Below, one piece after another: positions 1-7,085 of a stretch of DNA of 64,000 nt. A program made the translations under genes and the position numbers. The notes below the pieces were generated by a model. That model had not been told where the DNA came from, searched no databases, and saw nothing but the letters and a program-made list of their open reading frames with translations. This DNA is from Escherichia phage Bf23: sequence record OR083247.1. One strand, given 5' to 3'. The number at the start of each line of letters is the position of its first letter. The first letter of the stretch is position 1.

Positions 1-55
1 CGAACCCCCAACTTCTGGTTGGCAACCAAAAATTATACCCTTTAACTACGAACGC
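1..55 (-). tRNA. tRNA-Gly(GCC), 3' part cut by window edge
   Basis: Minus-strand fold: acceptor GCGTTCG, D-arm GTTA/AAGGGTA/TAAT, anticodon stem TTTGG/CCAGA (one G-U), loop TTGCCAA; T-loop runs off the window start. Confidence 0.5.
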
Positions 56-64
56 AAAATAAGT

Positions 65-186
65 CATTCTAGGCAGGATTCGAACCTGCTATCACTTGTG
101 CGGACTTACGAGAACCATTCTTTCACTCGAATCGAACGAGCTTCTGCCCTAGCCAAGCTGGTTTCCCCATCAACCACGCTAGAATG
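65..186 (-). ncRNA. tRNA-like element, non-canonical (about 121 nt, no encoded CCA)
   Basis: T-arm GCAGG/TTCGAAT/CCTGC at 73-89; perfect 7-bp acceptor-like pairing between 66-72 and 179-185; D-arm-like TGGT..ACCA; no canonical anticodon arm found. Confidence 0.3.
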
Positions 187-307
187 TTTGATTGTTTTCA
201 GTGCAAGAGTCCGAGTCTTGGACACGACCGCTTCGCAAGTACATAGGCAGCTTATCATGAGTCAGCACTTCCGAATTGCTAGCTCCGTGTTCTGCACTGA
301 AATTTTA

Positions 308-655
308 TTAGTTTAACCGTAAAGTATTATCTACTTCACCATTAATTGTTCGGCATTCCTCTGGGATTGTCGGAGTGGCCTTGTATTCCCACCACTCAGC
401 ACCGTCATACTCCCCACGTTCTAGCCAAGTTCCATCGGCAAACCATACATTACCATAAAGTAATTGTCCACCGTATCCAGAATCATATTCAAAGTCTAGG
501 TTATTAAGAAAATCCTCAATATCTTCTTCTGTATAGCCTAAAGGTAGTACCCAAACTTTTTTATCCCCATAATACCCGAATTCTATTTTAATACACTTAA
601 CTTCAGAATTAGTATTTTTTAAGGCAAGTAACAACTCTTCTTTGGCATTACGCAT
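308..655 (-). CDS. hypothetical protein (115 aa)
   Basis: ORF on the same strand as neighbouring early genes; no recognised motif. Confidence 0.45.
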   Translation of the reverse strand: MRNAKEELLLALKNTNSEVKCIKIEFGYYGDKKVWVLPLGYTEEDIEDFLNNLDFEYDSGYGGQLLYGNVWFADGTWLERGEYDGAEWWEYKATPTIPEECRTINGEVDNTLRLN

Positions 656-680
656 AGTATATTCTCATACTGAATTATTT

Positions 681-757
681 TGGCGCGACCGATGGGATTT
701 GAACCCACATTCTCTCCCGTGACAGGGGAGTACCATTACCAAGCCAGCCCCGGTCGC
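681..757 (-). tRNA. tRNA-Asp(GTC)
   Basis: Acceptor GCGACCG/CGGTCGC, anticodon stem CTCCC/GGGAG, loop CTGTCAC, T-arm GTGGG/TTCAAAT/CCCAT, discriminator G, CCA encoded (TGG at 681-683 on plus). Confidence 0.8.
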
Positions 758-766
758 ATAATTTAT

Positions 767-952
767 TTACTCAGCTTTGAGTTTTTCAATAGCTGCATTA
801 AGTTCTTTAAGAAACTCTTTTCGTACATTAAGACGATTGAGACTTACTAGTATATCATGTTTAAGTTCTTCGATGTATTTCTTCTCAACTTCAATATTGT
901 TGATAGTGCTATCACGATGAACCTCTAGCTGTGCAATTACGTTCTTAGACAT
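767..952 (-). CDS. hypothetical small coiled-coil protein (61 aa)
   Basis: ORF track; charged heptad-like sequence. Confidence 0.35.
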   Translation of the reverse strand: MSKNVIAQLEVHRDSTINNIEVEKKYIEELKHDILVSLNRLNVRKEFLKELNAAIEKLKAE

Positions 953-1054
953 ACTTATTTCCTCAGTTATTAATGAAAATGGTATCTGTGGCTGAATTCG
1001 ATGTCAGCAATGATAGCTGGTTGGCTACCGGTTTACTTAACTCTACACAGAATT

Positions 1055-1132
1055 TGGCGGTTCCTGCTGGATTCGAACCAGCAACCCTCAACTTAACAAG
1101 ATGCCGCTCTAACCAATTAGAGCTAAGGAACC
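1055..1132 (-). tRNA. tRNA-Asn(GTT)
   Basis: Acceptor GGTTCCT/AGGAACC, D-arm GCTC..GAGC, loop TTGTTAA, T-arm GCTGG/TTCGAAT/CCAGC, discriminator G, CCA encoded; anticodon stem has mismatches (3 of 5 pairs). Confidence 0.6.
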
Positions 1133-1627
1133 ATATAAGTCAGAACTAGAGTTAATACGTTCTAGATATTTACTAAGATCTCTAGAATTTATACTAAACC
1201 ACTCATGTTCTTTTAAATCTTTGAAATACTGGTGAATTAGTTTTTCACCTTTTCGTTTGTCAAACCAAAAAGACCAATGCTCTAACTTATAATCCCTATA
1301 AGGGGAATAAGTCTGATATTGAGCTAATCTCTCTTTTGGATTTTGACTCATGCCTATTTTATACTGATTTTTCCATGCAGGATTACTAATACAGTATACA
1401 AAACCTTCAGAAATAGGAAGTTTATTTTCCTGCTTAAACTTTATAAAGGAAAGTGCAGCAAGTTTTCTCGAATACATAGTATTTGTATTCTTTTTGGTAT
1501 TACCATTGGTTCCTGAAAGATTTATATATTCTTCCATAAATCTTTGGATTAGTTCTGCAGTTATATAGAAGGGCTCATTAGTAACAACGCCTTTCTTTAC
1601 CAAACTATCAAAAACTTTTGTATGCAC
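1109..1627 (-). CDS. GIY-YIG / T5orf172-like domain protein (172 aa)
   Basis: Motif GFVYCISNP..YKIGMSQNP..RLAQYQT matches the GIY-YIG-like T5orf172 pattern; 3' end overlaps tRNA-Asn by about 24 nt. Confidence 0.55.
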   Translation of the reverse strand: MHTKVFDSLVKKGVVTNEPFYITAELIQRFMEEYINLSGTNGNTKKNTNTMYSRKLAALSFIKFKQENKLPISEGFVYCISNPAWKNQYKIGMSQNPKERLAQYQTYSPYRDYKLEHWSFWFDKRKGEKLIHQYFKDLKEHEWFSINSRDLSKYLERINSSSDLYGSLALIG

Positions 1628-1648
1628 TACGCCTTTCCTTTAGTAATT

Positions 1649-1724
1649 TGGACGACCGCATGAGATTTGAACTCACATAAAAAGGATTTGCAATCCTTCG
1701 CCTAAGCCATTCAGCCAACGGTCG
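1649..1724 (-). tRNA. tRNA-Cys(GCA)
   Basis: Anticodon stem AAGGA/TCCTT, loop TTGCAAA, T-arm GTGAG/TTCAAAT/CTCAT, acceptor 7 bp with one G-U, discriminator U73 (Cys identity element), CCA encoded. Confidence 0.8.
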
Positions 1725-1902
1725 ATTTATCTTGTTTTTCGAGATCTTCAAATTCTAAATCATTGAAGTTCCCTAGAGTACGGGAGTAGAACCCGTCTCC
1801 TGCGTCATAGCCTGATTTGCCACAATCACACATTTTAAATTCACGAAGATGTGTAAAAACATGTTCAGAACCACAACACTTAAATCTAACTAATCGTTTC
1901 AT
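1711..1902 (-). CDS. small Cys-rich protein, possible zinc ribbon (63 aa)
   Basis: CC..H..C.C spacing in the translated ORF; stop overlaps the tRNA-Cys 5' end. Confidence 0.4.
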   Translation of the reverse strand: MKRLVRFKCCGSEHVFTHLREFKMCDCGKSGYDAGDGFYSRTLGNFNDLEFEDLEKQDKSTVG

Positions 1903-1931
1903 TAGCTTCTCCAGTTCAATTTATGTAATTA

Positions 1932-2240
1932 TTATATAGAACTTTTGGAAACTAAGCAACTACATTTTTTTAAGAATTTGATGCCTTTCTTTTTCTTCTT
2001 ATATTTCCACGTTAATGGATTTTGTCGATTATGAACGCTTGAGATCTTTGTCTCGTCAAAGTTCTTCAATATCATGTAATCACAGGATAATTGTTTTAGT
2101 GGAATGTGATCCCCGTCAAAAGCGTATACATAAGGCTGTTGACTAGCACGATAATGATAGACTTTGTTAATTCTACGTTTCAGCGACTTATCCGCACAGT
2201 AAATAAAGAAGTTTTCAGGATGCACTAGCATCTCCTTCAA
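1932..2240 (-). CDS. hypothetical protein (102 aa)
   Basis: ORF track; lysine-rich C-terminus. Confidence 0.4.
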   Translation of the reverse strand: MKEMLVHPENFFIYCADKSLKRRINKVYHYRASQQPYVYAFDGDHIPLKQLSCDYMILKNFDETKISSVHNRQNPLTWKYKKKKKGIKFLKKCSCLVSKSSI

Positions 2241-2242
2241 TT

Positions 2243-2317
2243 TGGTGCACCCTGTTCGAATTGAACGAACCTCTCAAGCTCTTCAGGCAAGCGCTAATCC
2301 ATCTCAGCTAAAGGTGC
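2243..2317 (-). tRNA. tRNA-Phe(GAA)
   Basis: Acceptor GCACCTT/AGGGTGC (one G-U), D-stem GCTG/TAGC, loop CTGAAGA, T-arm GTTCG/TTCAATT/CGAAC, discriminator A73, CCA encoded; anticodon stem carries two U-U mismatches. Confidence 0.55.
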
Positions 2318-2323
2318 AAATTT

Positions 2324-2394
2324 TGGCAGGGGTAAAGGTATTCGAAACCTTTTCATGGGTTTTGTAGGCCCATTTGCAACCTATGCGTACCCCA
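2324..2394 (-). tRNA. tRNA-like gene, anticodon unassigned (short, possibly degenerate)
   Basis: CCA encoded, T-arm AAGGT/TTCGAAT/ACCTT, 6-bp acceptor GGGGTA/TACCCC; middle region only 35 nt and no canonical 7-nt anticodon loop resolved. Confidence 0.35.
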
Positions 2395-2403
2395 ATTGTT
2401 AAT

Positions 2404-2480
2404 TGGCGTCCTGTGCGGGGATCGAACCCGCAAACCCTACCTTGAAAGGGTAGTGACTTTACCCGTTTGTCTAACAGGAC
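2404..2480 (-). tRNA. tRNA-Glu(TTC)
   Basis: Perfect acceptor GTCCTGT/ACAGGAC, anticodon stem CTACC/GGTAG, loop CTTTCAA, T-arm GCGGG/TTCGATC/CCCGC, discriminator G, CCA encoded. Confidence 0.8.
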
Positions 2481-2486
2481 TTAAAT

Positions 2487-2574
2487 TGGTAGGGGAGGAT
2501 GGAGTCGAACCACCCGAGTCGCAATGACAACTAATTTACAGTCAGCTCTGCTACCACTTACAGAATACTCCCCC
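2487..2574 (-). tRNA. tRNA-Tyr(GTA), type II with long variable arm
   Basis: Anticodon loop CTGTAAA with stem GCTGA/TTAGT (two G-U), variable arm about 15 nt, T-arm GGTGG/TTCGACT/CCATC, discriminator A73, CCA encoded; 88 nt. Confidence 0.65.
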
Positions 2575-2699
2575 ATATTTGAATGAAAAGTAAGTCGGTT
2601 AAACTCAAGGTGGAATATTTCAGGATTTCCTGACTTTACCCCTCAAAGCAGCTCGCTTAGTTACTTCTCATTCAGATATGTTTTCCAAATTAGATAACT

Positions 2700-2728
2700 A
2701 TTATACCAAGTTTTAGGGCACTGAGCAA
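2700..2728 (-). promoter_or_regulatory. sigma70-type promoter reading into the tRNA cluster (-35 TTGCTC, 17-nt spacer, -10 TATAAT)
   Basis: Hexamers read on the minus strand immediately upstream of tRNA-Tyr. Confidence 0.5.
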
Positions 2729-2756
2729 GTCAGATTTTGAAGAACTTGCTCAGTGC
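2718..2756. terminator. 12-bp perfect hairpin GCACTGAGCAAG/CTTGCTCAGTGC downstream of ORF 2765-3040
   Basis: Inverted repeat with 15-nt loop; overlaps the -35 of the tRNA promoter; no strong U-tract, so could be a processing or attenuation structure. Confidence 0.4.
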
Positions 2757-2764
2757 TGTATTAG

Positions 2765-3040
2765 TTAGTCGAACTTAGGAGTGACAGCTAAGGAAAACGG
2801 AAGTTCAAAAATTTCTTCGCCCTCATTACTAACGGTAACTACACGACCTTTAAGTTCAGACATTGAAATATCAATATCAGCTTTTGCATCTGGAGCCATG
2901 CCAGCTTCAATACACTTAGCTTTAACTTCCGGTAAAAGCTCTACATTATAGAGATAGAGCCACTCAATCTCACCTTCCCAGTCTTCCCAGGATTTACAGA
3001 TTGCACTTTCAATACCAGTTGCTACAACACGATTTTGCAT
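2765..3040 (-). CDS. hypothetical protein (91 aa)
   Basis: ORF track; same-strand context. Confidence 0.5.
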   Translation of the reverse strand: MQNRVVATGIESAICKSWEDWEGEIEWLYLYNVELLPEVKAKCIEAGMAPDAKADIDISMSELKGRVVTVSNEGEEIFELPFSLAVTPKFD

Positions 3041-3130
3041 TAGTTAACTCCTTCATCAATTTATATAACTATTATATCAGAAATTTAAAGCAAAAGGCAA
3101 GTACATTTTTAAAAATTCTATTCGGAGGAG

Positions 3131-3337
3131 CTAAACTCCAGATTCTTCGGCCAAGTCTAGGCTAATAAGAGTTATAGCCATAATTGCTGCACCGTGTTCT
3201 TTTTCTCCGGTGTTTTTAGCAGAGTCTATAATATCCTTAATCTGCTCGTAATAACTTTTTACTTCTTGTTCAATGCCCGCCTCGGCTATCATGCCTTTAG
3301 TCATGAGTCGTTGCATGGTAATTTCAGGATTAGCCAT
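3131..3337 (-). CDS. hypothetical protein (68 aa)
   Basis: ORF track. Confidence 0.4.
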   Translation of the reverse strand: MANPEITMQRLMTKGMIAEAGIEQEVKSYYEQIKDIIDSAKNTGEKEHGAAIMAITLISLDLAEESGV

Positions 3338-3526
3338 GTTGTTTCTCCAGTTTCATTTTTAATAGTTTACAAATGAAGTCAATATCTTCATCTGTGCCTA
3401 AGTCTCTATCCTCAAGGGTCGCCTTGAAGTTTTTCGTCAATTCCATGAGGATGACCTCTCTAGAACGACGTGTTGGTGGCGGAGGAGATCTATACATCTT
3501 AATTCCTTAATTTGGTAGGGGTTATA

Positions 3527-4210
3527 TCATCTATTTTTCTTAATACTTTTAGGATCTTTCCCTGTTAGGGACTTATACCTTTTCCTTAATCCAGTATCAG
3601 ACAATCCTAGTTCTTTGGAGGCACGAATCCAGGAATATTTAGATACCCAGTACTCTATTTGCTCCACAGTAATATCTGGATTTATAGTTATCTCTTTAGG
3701 AGTACATGATTTACAGTGTGTTGCTCTTGAGCTAATTTCGCAGTGACAAATAGCACACGTATTTACAGTCCTTTCTGTATACCTGCCAATATTTTTGCCT
3801 GCATGAGTAGGTGTTAGTGCATGGCAATTTGGGCATAGGAGGGCTAAGTTATCCCATTCATTATTATAGTGATTTCCATCCTTATGTTCAAGTTCTAAAG
3901 GAATTGGTTTATCTAACCAACTTTCTAAGCCACAACTCTCACATTTATGTGGTTTTAGCCCCTCGTTAAGAATTTTATTCTTTAGTTTATAGGAAGAAAT
4001 AGGGCTGCCGTTATATAAATACTCTGTTGCAGACTTATATTTATTATCATACTGCCTATTCGCAGGAATAACTACTATTCCTAGTTTTCCTAAATATGCT
4101 TCCAAAGTGTTCGAGGAGCAGGATAGCATTCTTGCTATCTCTGCTTTAGATTTTCCCTGAGCTATCCACTGAGCTATTTCTTCCTTTCTATCTAGTATAT
4201 CAGTTCTCAT
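3527..4210 (-). CDS. HNH homing endonuclease (227 aa) with N-terminal HTH
   Basis: HNH core ELEHKDGNHYNNEWDNLALLCPNCHA plus additional Cys clusters; free-standing gene beside the tRNA cluster. Confidence 0.75.
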   Translation of the reverse strand: MRTDILDRKEEIAQWIAQGKSKAEIARMLSCSSNTLEAYLGKLGIVVIPANRQYDNKYKSATEYLYNGSPISSYKLKNKILNEGLKPHKCESCGLESWLDKPIPLELEHKDGNHYNNEWDNLALLCPNCHALTPTHAGKNIGRYTERTVNTCAICHCEISSRATHCKSCTPKEITINPDITVEQIEYWVSKYSWIRASKELGLSDTGLRKRYKSLTGKDPKSIKKNR

Positions 4211-4233
4211 AGTTTATGACTTTATAATTAAGT

Positions 4234-4272
4234 TGGTGGCTCCCCGAGGATTCGAACCTACATCTTCCACCA
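4234..4272 (-). ncRNA. tRNA-like minihelix (T-arm-like hairpin with encoded CCA)
   Basis: TGG, then stem TGGTGG/CCACCA enclosing a GGATTCGAACC T-loop motif; no partner acceptor strand or anticodon arm found; lies in the ORF-free 4211-4568 region. Confidence 0.3.
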
Positions 4273-4531
4273 GTTACGGCTTGATAATACCAATTATACT
4301 AGGACGGCAGTGTTACTACATAAGTGATTTCCACACCCCACTATTTATAAATTAGAGAAGAGTTTAGGGGAGAGGTTTCAGACGCCCCATTTTATACGTT
4401 CTAGCCACTAACCGGGATTGCCGCCCCCTGTGTACTAGTTTTACAACTAACCCACCGACTCTATTCAGTGCACTCCGGTTGGGATTCTGCACTCAGCGTA
4501 ATCGGCTCGCTGTTCCCTAATTTATGAATAT

Positions 4532-4560
4532 ATTATACAGAATTTATAAGCATTTAGCAA
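4532..4560 (-). promoter_or_regulatory. early promoter (-35 TTGCTA, 17-nt spacer, -10 TATAAT)
   Basis: Consensus hexamers on the minus strand inside an AT-rich block. Confidence 0.6.
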
Positions 4561-4568
4561 ATGAATTT

Positions 4569-5003
4569 TTAGAAAAATTCACTAGCGATCAAAGCAGTTG
4601 TTTTACCGTCATAACGTCCAGGAAATTCTGCCTTAATAGTTTTCATTAATAGAGCTTTGGTAATACCTGGGTTTAATTTAACCAGTTCTGCAAAATACTC
4701 ACGAATTTCAGTTTCAGTCAGTTGACTTGGCTGATACTCTTGCAGCATGGAATAAAGCAGTTGCTCATAGTCCACATCAGTAGGAACTTTCGTACCAACT
4801 TTAATGGCGCGCTGTTTTGCATTTTCTAGAGCCTTAATCTGAGCTTTCAGATAGGCTACAAACTCGATTCGAGTAACAATGTCTTTATCAATACGTTGCA
4901 GGTCGCCAATCATGGTCTGAAGATTAAGTGCCCGCTCTTTATCACCGTGAGTACGTGCTAGACTAAGCAGTCCACGAAGGGTCATTAGGATATTTTCACC
5001 CAT
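4569..5003 (-). CDS. hypothetical protein (144 aa)
   Basis: ORF track. Confidence 0.5.
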   Translation of the reverse strand: MGENILMTLRGLLSLARTHGDKERALNLQTMIGDLQRIDKDIVTRIEFVAYLKAQIKALENAKQRAIKVGTKVPTDVDYEQLLYSMLQEYQPSQLTETEIREYFAELVKLNPGITKALLMKTIKAEFPGRYDGKTTALIASEFF

Positions 5004-5169
5004 TATTTCATCCCCAATGCTTGGTTAAAAGATTGTTCTGTCATAACTGCTGAGACTTTGGCGAAATCAAACTTTTTAGGGTTCGTAGTGATCTCAGCAA
5101 CGTTGGAAGTTTTAACAGTTTTCGTAGTACGAATACCGCGAGTGTTAACACCAATGACGATCAAGTTCT

Positions 5170-5859
5170 TCATAAACTACCCCCTTTCTGTACTATTGTG
5201 GCCCCCTCTTTCAAGAGGAATTCTTCTGCCTCTTCGGGGGAAATATTAAAGTATTCAGTAGATCCAGCAAATCCACTATAACCACAATTATGACTTTTAA
5301 AATACATATGTGCCTTCTTCTCTAAAGCAAGGGTTTCTGATTTAGAAGAGCTACCATATGTATAGTGGCCATAATACTTAGCTGTGGGATCCCCGGATGC
5401 AGTAATCAAATCCCTTAACCTACGAGCAGGAGAATTAGTAATTCCTATTTTTGTACCTAATGAACTAGTTATTATATAAAGTATCCCACCATCGCTCCAT
5501 ATATTGGAGCACTCAGGGCATCTATTACCCATATTTTTTATGGCACTAAAAGTGGTAATCCATACATGCCCCTTACTACAAGTAAGTTGTAGCTTAGAGT
5601 TATTATTTATATATTTGGTAATGGTGTAATATCCTAAACTACGCAAATATTCAGATACTTGTTCTTGAGTGTACCTAACATTTCCATAGCAGTAGGGACA
5701 ACCTCTTCCGTTCCTAATATTATTTAGGGTAGCATTAAAAACATGTCCATAGGTGCAACAGAACTGCATTTTAGTCCTAGTATTAGTATACTTATCATTA
5801 GTGAATAAGCCTCTACTAACTAGGTAACTCTCTACTTCTTCTTGTGTTAATTTTTTCAT
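5170..5859 (-). CDS. T5orf172 / GIY-YIG-like domain protein with N-terminal tandem zinc-ribbon repeats (229 aa)
   Basis: Two repeats of C..GH..(N20)..CP(Y/E)C followed by GGILYIIT..KIGITNSPARRLRDL. Confidence 0.55.
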   Translation of the reverse strand: MKKLTQEEVESYLVSRGLFTNDKYTNTRTKMQFCCTYGHVFNATLNNIRNGRGCPYCYGNVRYTQEQVSEYLRSLGYYTITKYINNNSKLQLTCSKGHVWITTFSAIKNMGNRCPECSNIWSDGGILYIITSSLGTKIGITNSPARRLRDLITASGDPTAKYYGHYTYGSSSKSETLALEKKAHMYFKSHNCGYSGFAGSTEYFNISPEEAEEFLLKEGATIVQKGGSL

Positions 5860-5870
5860 TTAATAAATTT

Positions 5871-6338
5871 TTAAGTTTTAGTGACAACAGGTTTATAAAA
5901 CGTATGTCCCTTAATCTTAGTTGTTTTCTTAAACTTCTTTGTCCAGTAAGGTTTATCTTTACCACTATGGAAGTATAAAGCTCCATGTGTAGGATCTTGT
6001 GGTAAATCAACGTAGTATATCACTCTAGCTAAATTCTTGGCGGTTTGCCAAGCCTCATCGGTTTTATCAACTTTTGGCCTCTTAGATACCCAAGAGAACT
6101 GGTTAGACTGATATACTACTTTACAGTAGGAATCTGGAAATTTGCCGGAGTTTACACGGTTTTTAGTAACATGTGCAATCGCCGTCATTCCCTTTATGCC
6201 CTCACCACGACTTTCGAAATAGATATTTTTAGCAATGCAATCTATTTCTTTTGCATCGTGCGATGCCTGACTACTAAAGCTGAAGGTAAGGGCAGCTACT
6301 AAAAGCAAAGCTGCCTTCATTCGTTTTACTCCTGCCAA
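5871..6338 (-). CDS. secreted SleB/CwlJ-like cell-wall hydrolase (155 aa)
   Basis: N-terminal signal peptide (hydrophobic LLLVAALTFSFSSQA), then IYFESRGEG..G..AIAHVTKNR resembling the Hydrolase_2 core. Confidence 0.5.
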   Translation of the reverse strand: MAGVKRMKAALLLVAALTFSFSSQASHDAKEIDCIAKNIYFESRGEGIKGMTAIAHVTKNRVNSGKFPDSYCKVVYQSNQFSWVSKRPKVDKTDEAWQTAKNLARVIYYVDLPQDPTHGALYFHSGKDKPYWTKKFKKTTKIKGHTFYKPVVTKT

Positions 6339-6643
6339 TCGTATTCAATACGATTAGGGTTTTCTTTGTACCCCAAGTCAAGCAAATCATTACGCATAGT
6401 TTGCTTAGCTACGGGATTCGAGGTTACTAGTACCACTTTCTTTGGTCTCTGCCCAAATTCTAAGAGTAAACGAAGAATTTGATAACCTTCCATACCATCT
6501 ACAGCCAAATCGTTATCGAAATAAACAAAATGGCCAGTGGTATCAGTCTTATTCAGAAACTCAACAGCGGCTTCTGGGGTTCGAATGATAATGTCCATTC
6601 CGTGAAGATTACGCACATCATCAATCAAAATGTGAAAAGTCAT
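6326..6643 (-). CDS. CheY-like receiver (REC) domain-like protein (105 aa)
   Basis: HILIDDV .. FDNDL..DGMEGYQILRLL .. VVLVTSN pattern resembles receiver-domain acidic pocket, phosphoacceptor and T/S positions. Confidence 0.4.
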   Translation of the reverse strand: MTFHILIDDVRNLHGMDIIIRTPEAAVEFLNKTDTTGHFVYFDNDLAVDGMEGYQILRLLLEFGQRPKKVVLVTSNPVAKQTMRNDLLDLGYKENPNRIEYDWQE

Positions 6644-6673
6644 AATAGCCTCGTTTCATCAATTTAAAAATAT

Positions 6674-6702
6674 ATTATACAGAGAACTTAATAAATTAGC
6701 AA
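6674..6702 (-). promoter_or_regulatory. early promoter (-35 TTGCTA, 17-nt spacer, -10 TATAAT)
   Basis: Consensus hexamers upstream of the 6326-6643 gene. Confidence 0.6.
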
Positions 6703-7085
6703 ATACATTTTTAAATTGTGAAACTAGTAAACCGATAAACAGCCTAGAGGCGCCACAGGCCATATCTTACGAGCCATGTACCTTTGATCTAGGGTTTGAA
6801 TCATCAACGAATACTTTGCATCTTTTAGCTTTAGAAGTTTAGAAGTTTGAGTTCTTTAAACTTTTCAGCTTTCATACTTAAATGTTGATCTTTGAAGTTG
6901 TGTCGGTAATATCAACGACTCTTTGTTTTTACGTGTCAGATTAAATGTCTGATGTAATAAACATAATCTCCAATAGATTATACTTTATAGTATGGTTAGC
7001 GGTCTTATTTAACCTCGTATTTCAACCGCTGCTGCGAGGTAAGATGCTTGGGCTTTCGTCTACCGATTTACTAGCTTTTAAATTA

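What the first reader, a model, noticed from the sequence alone, without database searches (positions are those of the whole stretch)
1109..5859. Two T5orf172/GIY-YIG-like genes and an HNH endonuclease embedded in the tRNA region
ORFs 1109-1627 and 5170-5859 both carry the GxxY..YKIG..R motif of the GIY-YIG-like T5orf172 family, the second with a duplicated zinc-ribbon N-terminus, and ORF 3527-4210 is an HNH endonuclease. Free-standing homing endonucleases are known in this family, but T5orf172-domain proteins are functionally uncharacterised and the first one overlaps a tRNA gene.
Basis: partly seen in the sequence, partly recalled or inferred. Interest (0 to 1): 0.5.

Follow-up and report, generated by a model that had tools for sequence, protein, structure and literature searches.

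The report
Known homing endonuclease genes in BF23
The window is phage BF23 (a T5 relative), and the three flagged genes are real, already annotated selfish nuclease genes that come and go between related phages, so the finding is correct but ordinary.

Summary
The window is coliphage BF23 (99.9% identical to the deposited BF23 tRNA region). All three ORFs exist as described.

- **ORF 1109-1627** is BF23 'ORF trn 2.8' (T5.069). It passes the Pfam MUG113/T5orf172 cut-offs, and its last 24 nt, stop codon included, lie inside tRNA-Asn.
- **ORF 3527-4210** matches, residue for residue, hegA/F-TflIV, a T5/BF23 HNH endonuclease named as site-specific in the literature.
- **ORF 5170-5859** has two zinc-finger repeats (DUF4379/CapR) followed by a T5orf172 domain. 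GenBank already calls it 'DNA-binding domain-containing endonuclease'.

All three behave as mobile genes. About 435 T5-like records carry the neighbouring hydrolase gene. Close copies occur in about 79 (ORF1), 22 (hegA) and 5 (ORF3) of them. Precise empty sites exist for ORF1 and ORF3. ORF3 is 99.7% identical between phage genera whose flanks are 81-96% identical.

One detail may be new. ORF1-family genes sit directly against the 5' end of a tRNA gene (13 of 14 copies) and often use the tRNA's TAG at positions 8-10 as their stop codon.

Verdict: already known, low interest.

The parts
1109..1627 (-). ORF1 = BF23 'ORF trn 2.8' = T5.069 orthologue (172 aa). It has an N-terminal three-helix domain (aa 1-67) and a T5orf172/GIY-YIG-like nuclease domain (aa 73-160). 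It is a free-standing homing endonuclease gene inserted in the spacer between tRNA-Cys and tRNA-Asn.
1055..1132 (-). tRNA-Asn(GUU), 'type A' allele. Its first 24 nt encode the last 7 codons and the TAG stop of ORF1.
   Evidence: ARAGORN, Rfam 55.4 bits, junction sequence.
1649..1724 (-). tRNA-Cys(GCA), the upstream boundary of the ORF1 insertion. ORF1's ribosome-binding site and start codon begin about 5 nt after the tRNA's CCA end.
3527..4210 (-). hegA = F-TflIV. Architecture: LuxR/GerE-type HTH (aa 8-42), zinc-bound HNH core (aa 88-136), second CxxC...CxxC ribbon (aa 152-169) and a C-terminal HTH-like tail.
   Evidence: 100% identical to CAE53202.1/WLW40685.1. GerE 29 bits. PHROG and PADLOC homing-endonuclease models. 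Cys/His positions.
3513..3522 (-). 10-nt remnant (TGGTAGGGGT on the + strand) of the 3' acceptor end of a tRNA, 4 nt downstream of the hegA stop. In phages without hegA an intact tRNA-Leu(UAA) begins here.
   Evidence: Alignment with SPLA5b and JLBYU40; coordinates.
5170..5859 (-). ORF3 (229 aa). Two zinc-finger DNA-binding repeats (aa 1-60 and 61-120; DUF4379/CapR) followed by a T5orf172 nuclease domain (aa 124-215; G125, Y128, K137, G139, R146/147, E202). It is a free-standing homing endonuclease cassette that replaces a 57-bp intergenic region.
   Evidence: Pfam. Internal repeat. Same site in 5 phage records of 2 genera. 99.7% nt identity to rutana/KFSSM against 81-96% in the flanks. Empty sites in T5, SPLA5b and JLBYU40.
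5003..5173 (-). 56-aa gene (T5.082 orthologue), the downstream flank of ORF3. Its ATG overlaps the ORF3 stop (ATGA), and the last ORF3 codons (AGGGGG) lie where a ribosome-binding site for it would be expected.
5871..6338 (-). SleB-like cell-wall hydrolase gene (T5.083 orthologue), the upstream flank of ORF3. Its stop codon lies 11 nt before the ORF3 start.
   Evidence: Pfam Hydrolase_2 E=2.4e-25.
2404..2574 (-). tRNA-Glu and tRNA-Tyr, 6 bp apart. This is an unoccupied site. In phages oselot and GreteKellenberger an ORF1-family paralogue sits between these two tRNAs.

Best explanation
The three genes are free-standing homing endonuclease genes, that is, selfish nuclease cassettes, in the early region of phage BF23. 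Each encodes a DNA-binding module joined to a small nuclease domain.

- ORF1: three-helix domain plus T5orf172/GIY-YIG-like domain.
- hegA: HTH plus zinc-bound HNH.
- ORF3: two CapR/DUF4379 zinc-finger repeats plus T5orf172.

Proposed mechanism, inferred by analogy with T4 Seg/Mob enzymes and T5 F-Tfl enzymes. When BF23 and a relative lacking the gene infect the same cell, the enzyme nicks or cuts the relative's DNA at or near the empty site. Recombinational repair from the BF23 copy then transfers the nuclease gene, and often some flanking sequence, into the relative.

ORF1 belongs to a lineage that inserts in the few-base spacer directly upstream of a tRNA gene. It carries no spacer and often no stop codon of its own. 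It therefore runs into the tRNA and terminates on a TAG or TAA inside it, often the TAG at tRNA positions 8-10. RNase P cleavage at the tRNA 5' end should then remove the stop codon from the mRNA. That would keep expression of the nuclease low, as proposed earlier for T4 segB.

Shown here: domain content, conserved catalytic residues, precise insertion boundaries, sporadic distribution, and recent transfer between genera. Inferred: cleavage specificity, gene conversion, and regulation through tRNA processing.
For: Identity of the window:
- BF23, 99.9% over positions 1-4261.
- All three proteins are exact matches to deposited BF23 proteins.

Domains:
-.
- ORF1 catalytic-type residues are invariant in 25 homologues.

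Sporadic distribution:
- The flanking hydrolase is at least 80% identical in 435 records.
- ORF1 is at least 90% identical in 79, hegA in 22, and ORF3 at least 80% identical in 5.

Clean empty sites:
- ORF1: smaug has tRNA-Cys, an 8-bp spacer, then the same tRNA-Asn allele.
- ORF3: T5, SPLA5b and JLBYU40 have a 57-bp intergenic region in its place.
- hegA: phages without it show a conserved flank followed by a different tRNA.

Horizontal transfer:
- BF23 (Tequintavirus) against rutana (Epseptimavirus) shows no mismatch across about 5240-5890, against 2-16 mismatches per 50 bp outside.

tRNA-abutting lineage:
- 13 of 14 ORF1-family genes end 0-24 nt inside the next tRNA (Asn, Lys, Glu or Pro).
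- 5 of 8 junctions examined use the TAG at tRNA positions 8-10 as stop codon.

Literature:
- F-TflIV is listed among three novel site-specific endonucleases of T5 (Akulenko 2004, cited).
- A T5orf172 domain cleaves DNA in a Glu-dependent manner (PMC8263062).
- T5orf172 homing endonuclease genes with CapR-type zinc fingers are abundant in T5-like phages (PMC10448857).
- Loss of the stop codon through tRNA processing was proposed for segB and the F-Tfl genes (PMC2330249).
Against: - No cleavage assay or co-infection cross exists for ORF1 or ORF3, so homing itself is inferred from distribution.
- The Pfam GIY-YIG model proper is below cut-off for both T5orf172 proteins (13.6 and 16.9 bits against 22.6).
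- The Pfam HNH models are below cut-off for hegA.
- The target sites are unknown.
- The distribution counts are records, not independent phages. GenBank/RefSeq duplicates and close relatives inflate them.
- ORF1 has no recognisable zinc-finger or classical DNA-binding domain, so a DNA-binding role for its three-helix N-terminus is assumed.
Confidence: 0.85

Rival explanations
1. The nucleases have been recruited for the phage's benefit. They might exclude or degrade co-infecting relatives or satellites, as ICP1 Odn does, or take part in host-DNA breakdown. This overlaps with the homing model rather than excluding it.
For: The ICP1 T5orf172 protein Odn acts as an anti-satellite nuclease, and CapR is a domesticated derivative. 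ORF1 is fairly common (79 of about 435 records) and 95-99% conserved where present. The BF23 paper suggests that nucleases flanking the 4-kb deletion contributed to the rearrangement.
Against: All three genes are absent from most close relatives that grow on the same hosts. Each occupies a precise intergenic insertion site with an intact empty allele. Identity islands indicate spread of the gene itself.
Confidence: 0.15
2. They are catalytically dead DNA-binding regulators derived from homing endonucleases, like CapR of the PLE satellite. They would control expression of neighbouring tRNA or early genes.
For: hegA carries a LuxR/GerE-type HTH above the Pfam cut-off. ORF3 replaces a promoter-bearing intergenic region annotated in T5. 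UniProt names the ORF1 domain 'Orf172 DNA-binding'.
Against: The residues equivalent to the GIY-YIG catalytic Arg and Glu are kept in both T5orf172 proteins, and are invariant across the ORF1 family. The HNH His/Asn/His and zinc ligands are intact. F-TflIV is named as a site-specific endonuclease in the title of Akulenko 2004 (cited).
Confidence: 0.05
3. The ORF1 family acts on tRNA or tRNA genes, for example in processing, repair or turnover of the phage tRNA set. That would explain why it always sits next to a tRNA gene.
For: 13 of 14 family members abut a tRNA gene at five different sites.
Against: The domain is a DNA endonuclease fold in every characterised relative. Many T5-like phages have the same tRNAs without the gene. 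Conserved tRNA genes are typical homing targets, as for T4 SegB.
Confidence: 0.05
4. hegA or the T5orf172 enzymes make the site-specific single-strand nicks that are characteristic of T5/BF23 virion DNA.
For: T5 and BF23 both carry nicked virion DNA, and both carry hegA and ORF1.
Against: Nothing here links these genes to the mapped nick sites. Both genes are missing from most T5-like genomes. Nicking in those phages was not examined here.
Confidence: 0.03

Closest known systems
[quoted passage not shown] 2004)
   Same: ORF 3527-4210 is F-TflIV itself, 100% identical to the BF23 protein and about 97% at the nucleotide level to T5. The three are free-standing nuclease genes in the tRNA cluster. 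hegC and hegD, like ORF1, overlap the next tRNA gene.
   Different: For hegA, nothing. ORF1 and ORF3 use a T5orf172/GIY-YIG-like domain instead of HNH.
T5orf172 homing endonuclease genes of ICP1 and other phages, and their relatives Odn and CapR (Barth 2021 and 2023; Netter 2021)
   Same: ORF3 has the architecture described there: repeated CapR/DUF-type zinc-finger modules ('beads on a string') followed by a C-terminal T5orf172 domain. It sits at a boundary between differently related genome segments.
   Different: ORF1 has no zinc finger. It has a short three-helix N-terminal domain and a strict position against tRNA genes. No biochemical data exist for either BF23 protein.
T4 SegB (GIY-YIG homing endonuclease in the T4 tRNA gene cluster)
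   Same: It is a free-standing GIY-YIG-type gene embedded between tRNA genes. Its ORF ends at the 5' end of a tRNA, so tRNA maturation cuts the mRNA at or before the stop codon. It drives preferential inheritance of the surrounding tRNA region (PMC2330249).
   Different: SegB is a canonical GIY-YIG protein with no detectable sequence relation to ORF1 here. ORF1 reads 24 nt into the tRNA. Homing has been demonstrated for SegB but not for ORF1.
I-TevI catalytic domain / GIY-YIG superfamily (SLX1, UvrC)
   Different: The Pfam GIY-YIG model is below its cut-off for both proteins. T5orf172/MUG113 is a separate family within the superfamily.

Membership tests
T5orf172 / MUG113 (GIY-YIG clan) | Whole-protein score above the Pfam gathering cut-off for PF10544 or PF13455 | tested here: met
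   ORF1: 47.6 and 59.3 bits (cut-offs 20 and 22.3). ORF3: 29.9 and 36.2 bits.
T5orf172 / MUG113 (GIY-YIG clan) | GIY...YIG-type motif plus the conserved Arg and Glu needed for catalysis (I-TevI R27/E75; Odn E180) | tested here: met
   ORF1: G75/Y78, Y89-K-I-G92, R100 and E142, invariant in 25 homologues. ORF3: G125/Y128, K137-I-G139, R146/R147 and E202. Equivalence to the I-TevI residues is by motif position, not by structural superposition.
T5orf172 / MUG113 (GIY-YIG clan) | GIY-YIG alpha/beta fold | tested here: met
T5orf172 / MUG113 (GIY-YIG clan) | DNA endonuclease activity | not testable with these tools
   Known only for the distant relative Odn.
HNH / His-Me finger endonuclease (F-TflIV) | Sequence identity to the characterised enzyme | tested here: met
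   Exact match to CAE53202.1 'H-N-H endonuclease F-TflIV'.
HNH / His-Me finger endonuclease (F-TflIV) | Score above the Pfam HNH gathering cut-off | tested here: not met
   PF01844: 16.2 bits against 21.4. PF13392: 16.8 against 24.8. The PHROG HNH family (E=2.6e-80), the PADLOC homing-endonuclease model (541 bits) and the ZorE HNH models (E about 1e-9) do match. The CxxC...H...N...H...CxxC pattern is present.
Free-standing homing endonuclease gene | Presence/absence polymorphism at one locus among close relatives, with an intact empty site | tested here: met
   ORF1: smaug empty site. ORF3: T5, SPLA5b and JLBYU40 empty sites. hegA: SPLA5b, JLBYU40 and SelmaRatti lack it. Counts.
Free-standing homing endonuclease gene | Evidence of horizontal spread (gene more similar than its flanks between divergent genomes) | tested here: met
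   ORF3: 99.7% against 81-96% in the flanks, with sharp boundaries. ORF1: 97.3% against 90-92% in the flanks for SPLA5b. Not examined for hegA.
Free-standing homing endonuclease gene | Site-specific cleavage of the allele lacking the gene, and gene conversion in mixed infection | not testable with these tools
   Needs cleavage assays and phage crosses. The title of Akulenko 2004, cited by papers read here, reports site-specific endonuclease activity for F-TflIV only.
CapR-type zinc-finger DNA-binding repeat | Pfam CapR / DUF4379 above cut-off with conserved Cys ligands | tested here: met
   CapR 31.5 bits (cut-off 24.2). DUF4379 34.3 bits (cut-off 24.5), two stretches. C35, C54, C57, C94, C114 and C117 are conserved in homologues.

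The most novel reading that the evidence does not exclude
The ORF1 lineage, which probably includes the protein the T5orf172 domain is named after, may be a specialised group of homing endonucleases that ride on tRNA genes. The gene inserts with no spacer upstream of a tRNA gene and borrows the tRNA's TAG at positions 8-10, or a later TAG/TAA, as its stop codon. RNase P processing would therefore throttle its expression. By jumping between different tRNA genes (Asn, Lys, Glu, Pro) and dragging linked tRNA alleles along, it would drive turnover of the phage tRNA repertoire. That repertoire matters for escape from host nucleases that target tRNA anticodons.
Probability: 0.3. Interest if true: 0.5.

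Novelty: already known. Interest (0 to 1): 0.2.

Why it matters
It matters little beyond correct annotation. BF23 and T5 are classical model phages. hegA/F-TflIV is reported in the literature as a site-specific endonuclease. T5orf172 homing endonuclease genes in T5-like phages have been described, and GenBank already labels these genes as nucleases.

The modest added value lies in four points.

1. Precise occupied and empty site pairs for ORF1 and ORF3, which make cleavage and homing assays straightforward.
2. A clear case of recent transfer of ORF3 between phage genera.
3. The consistent arrangement of the ORF1 family hard against a tRNA gene, with the stop codon inside the tRNA. This gives a testable link between tRNA processing and control of a selfish nuclease.
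4. A possible driver of tRNA-allele turnover in phage tRNA clusters.

Tried and rejected
- **PDB sequence searches.** These found nothing significant for the two T5orf172 proteins (best E 0.14 and 0.23). For hegA they found only LuxR-type HTH matches.
- **NCBIfam.** It has no model for either T5orf172 protein.
- **Promoter and terminator scan of 900-6500.** The count was no more than chance (15 found, 15.8 expected), so no expression signals are claimed.
- **More paralogues in the window.** An HMM of the ORF1 family, and phmmer with ORF3 and hegA, against all six-frame ORFs of the 64-kb window found no further paralogues. ORF1 and ORF3 do not detect each other.
- **Origin of the domain name.** I could not read Iyer et al. 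2002 to confirm that 'T5orf172' is this 172-aa ORF. The link rests on the length and on UniRef naming T5.069 'Bacteriophage T5 Orf172 DNA-binding domain-containing protein'.
- **BF23 paper supplement.** The ORF table is not held, so I could not check which gene the authors call 'ORF97'.
- **Linkage of ORF1 to tRNA-Asn allele A.** I first thought ORF1 was strictly linked to allele A, with allele B as the target. Phage smaug has allele A without ORF1, so the linkage is not absolute and I dropped that version.
- **ORF3 structure.** I did not model it, because only 4 of 16 homologues cover its nuclease domain.

Full report
**What the window is.** Megablast of window 1-7000 against phage genomes gives 99.9% identity over positions 1-4261 to the deposited 'Enterobacteria phage BF23 tRNA gene region' (AJ604530) and about 97% to T5. 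The three proteins of the finding are exact matches to deposited BF23 proteins. These are CAE53196.1 'ORF trn 2.8', CAE53202.1/WLW40685.1 'H-N-H endonuclease F-TflIV', and WLW40688.1 'DNA-binding domain-containing endonuclease'. The window is therefore the early/tRNA region of the BF23 genome published in 2023 (PMC10644984).

**Check of the observation.** All three ORFs are present as described.

- ORF 1109-1627 (172 aa) passes the Pfam cut-offs for MUG113 (59.3 bits) and T5orf172 (47.6 bits). The GIY-YIG model proper is below cut-off.
- ORF 5170-5859 (229 aa) passes MUG113, T5orf172, DUF4379 (two stretches) and CapR. Its N-terminal halves are 45% identical to each other (E=1e-15), and each has a Cys/His...CxxC set.
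- ORF 3527-4210 has a LuxR/GerE HTH above cut-off and only sub-threshold Pfam HNH hits. It matches the PHROG HNH family at E=2.6e-80 and a PADLOC homing-endonuclease model over its full length at 541 bits. It carries the zinc-bound HNH pattern.
- The overlap with a tRNA is real. The last 24 nt of ORF1 (GGT TCC TTA GCT CTA ATT GGT TAG) are the first 24 nt of tRNA-Asn.
- ORF3, however, lies outside the tRNA cluster.

**ORF1 in more depth.** A database search found 27 homologues, nearly all 159-186 aa.

- In the alignment G75, Y78, K90, G92, R100, E128, E142 and W143 are invariant. The C-terminal tail that overlaps the tRNA is not conserved.
- An AlphaFold2 model (pLDDT 90, pTM 0.84) shows three N-terminal helices followed by a beta-beta-alpha-beta-alpha core.
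- T5.069 is also 172 aa, and UniRef names it 'Bacteriophage T5 Orf172 DNA-binding domain-containing protein'. This ORF is therefore very probably the orthologue of the protein that gave the domain its name. That is an inference, because I could not read the 2002 paper.

**Signs of mobility.** The flanking SleB-like hydrolase is at least 80% identical in 435 phage records, which serves as the baseline for T5-like genomes. Close copies of ORF1 (at least 90%) occur in 79 records, hegA (at least 90%) in 22, and ORF3 (at least 80%) in 5. These are records, with some GenBank/RefSeq duplicates.

- **ORF3.** All five records (four different phages) carry it at the same place, between the 56-aa gene and the hydrolase. 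They come from two genera: SelmaRatti and HMD-P5 in Tequintavirus, rutana and KFSSM in Epseptimavirus. T5, SPLA5b and JLBYU40 instead have a 57-bp intergenic segment, which in T5 is annotated with promoter P-D/E 33. The boundaries fall exactly at the ATG of the 56-aa gene and a few bases after the hydrolase stop. BF23 and rutana are 99.7% identical across ORF3, with no mismatch over about 650 bp. The flanks are 81-96% identical, with 2-16 mismatches per 50 bp. HMD-P5 shows the opposite pattern: ORF3 at 87% with flanks at 96-98%. The cassette therefore moves independently of its surroundings.
- **ORF1.** Phage smaug has the same tRNA-Asn allele ('type A', 96% identical) only 8 bp from tRNA-Cys, with no ORF. 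Aligned against BF23, this shows a clean insertion of about 510 bp within that spacer. Other phages without the gene (HMD-7, NBSal003, SelmaRatti, Shivani, T5_ev212) carry a different, equally well-scoring tRNA-Asn allele ('type B', 58-59 Rfam bits) at this position.
- **hegA.** In SPLA5b and JLBYU40 the conserved upstream gene (T5.074) is followed at once by tRNA-Leu(UAA). In SelmaRatti it is followed by another tRNA(CAU) allele. In BF23 and T5 only 10 nt of a tRNA 3' end remain (3513-3522), then hegA, then tRNA-Ile2.

**A feature of the ORF1 family.** I searched the fetched loci with an HMM of the family. In 13 of 14 occurrences the gene ends 0-24 nt inside the 5' end of the next tRNA gene on the same strand. 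The 13 cover five arrangements:

| Upstream tRNA | Downstream tRNA |
|---|---|
| Cys | Asn |
| Tyr | Asn |
| Met | Lys |
| Tyr | Glu |
| none found within the fetched stretch | Pro |

- In 5 of 8 junctions inspected, the stop codon is the TAG at positions 8-10 of the tRNA. In BF23 ORF1 the reading frame misses that TAG and stops at the TAG at tRNA positions 22-24.
- BF23 has a second paralogue of this kind, ORF trn 2.12.1 upstream of tRNA-Lys, just left of the window.
- In the window, tRNA-Glu and tRNA-Tyr are 6 bp apart. That site is empty here but occupied by a paralogue in oselot and GreteKellenberger.
- The T5 HNH genes hegC and hegD also overlap the following tRNA.

For T4 segB, and by personal communication for the F-Tfl genes, it has been proposed that tRNA maturation cuts the mRNA at or before the stop codon and so limits nuclease expression (PMC2330249). 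The same reasoning applies to ORF1, but it is untested.

**Comparison with what is known.**
- F-TflIV is named among three novel site-specific endonucleases of T5 (Akulenko 2004, cited). I did not read that paper.
- T5orf172 is no longer uncharacterised. ICP1 Odn cuts DNA in vitro and an E180A change abolishes this (PMC8263062).
- Barth et al. 2023 surveyed 468 T5orf172 homing endonuclease genes. They reported them as abundant in T5-like phages, usually fused to repeated CapR/DUF-type zinc fingers, and lying at boundaries of genetic exchange (PMC10448857). ORF3 fits that description exactly.
- Homologues of its zinc-finger repeats are also found fused to apparent HNH motifs or to other Pfam domains in metagenomic proteins.
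- The BF23 genome paper already names homing nucleases as the main source of differences among T5-like genomes.

**Verdict.** The finding is already known, and the genes are annotated as nucleases in public records. The only possibly new details are the precise occupied and empty site pairs, the transfer of ORF3 between genera, and the arrangement of the ORF1 lineage against tRNA genes with the stop codon inside the tRNA. Cleavage specificity, homing and regulation by tRNA processing remain inferences.

Noticed in passing
window 4234-4320 (junction at 4247-4261): Compared with the older BF23 record (AJ604530), the window lacks 4275 bp. The missing stretch holds tRNA-Ile2, tRNA-Ser3, the Toprim gene that the BF23 genome paper equates with the anti-retron protein Rad (its T5 ORF071), three + strand ORFs, an SPFH-like gene, tRNA-Arg and part of RNAX. 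The breakpoint is a 15-bp identity, AGGATTCGAACCTAC, shared by the T-arm of tRNA-Ile2 and a tRNA-like element in RNAX. It leaves a hybrid tRNA-like remnant that ARAGORN and Rfam do not call. The BF23 paper reports a ~4 kb deletion relative to T5, but the microhomology is not mentioned in the passages I read.
   Followed up: partly
L001 (AJ604530) 4478-4951, about 700 bp left of the window start: BF23 carries a second ORF1-family T5orf172 gene (ORF trn 2.12.1). It overlaps tRNA-Lys by 10 nt and uses the tRNA's TAG at positions 8-10 as its stop codon.
   Followed up: partly
window 4569-5003: The YqeY-like gene (PHROG 'tRNA amidotransferase') is only 62-64% identical to the copies in SelmaRatti, rutana, KFSSM, HMD-P5 and SPLA5b. 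The adjacent 56-aa gene is 91-96% identical. This marks a mosaic boundary next to the nuclease cassette. Several phage records label this gene 'recombination-related exonuclease', which Pfam does not support (YqeY 20.5 bits, below cut-off). It may be the 'ORF97 nuclease' that the BF23 paper says flanks the deletion, but I could not check this.
   Followed up: partly
window 6326-6643; L004 7954-8775: The gene after the hydrolase has a cyclic-phosphate-processing receiver domain (cREC_REC, E=9e-15). Its SelmaRatti orthologue is annotated as containing an intein, another mobile element in the same neighbourhood.
   Followed up: no
window ~2323-2393: The old BF23 record annotates a 71-nt tRNA-Trp between tRNA-Phe and tRNA-Glu. 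Neither ARAGORN nor Rfam (gathering threshold) calls a tRNA there. The BF23 paper states that BF23 lacks tRNA-Trp.
   Followed up: no
L011 579-730 and L012 579-730 (Shivani, T5_ev212): These phages have a 152-bp segment of unknown origin between tRNA-Asn (type B) and tRNA-Cys, where other phages without ORF1 have 7-11 bp. It could be a decayed insert, but it shows no clear similarity to ORF1.
   Followed up: no
proteins P0030-P0043 (alignment A2): Zinc-finger repeats like those of ORF3 occur in 2-5 copies in metagenomic proteins. Their C-terminal parts are not T5orf172 domains. Some show HNH-like motifs (HHIDY...CRSCN), and precomputed Pfam hits on some include PF18741 and PF05265. This suggests swapping of nuclease heads on a common DNA-binding scaffold.
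   Followed up: no
L006 (KFSSM) 3001-3714: The KFSSM copy of ORF3 has a 1-nt deletion near its 3' end that changes the last residues and extends the ORF. This may be an early step of decay, or a sequencing error.
   Followed up: no
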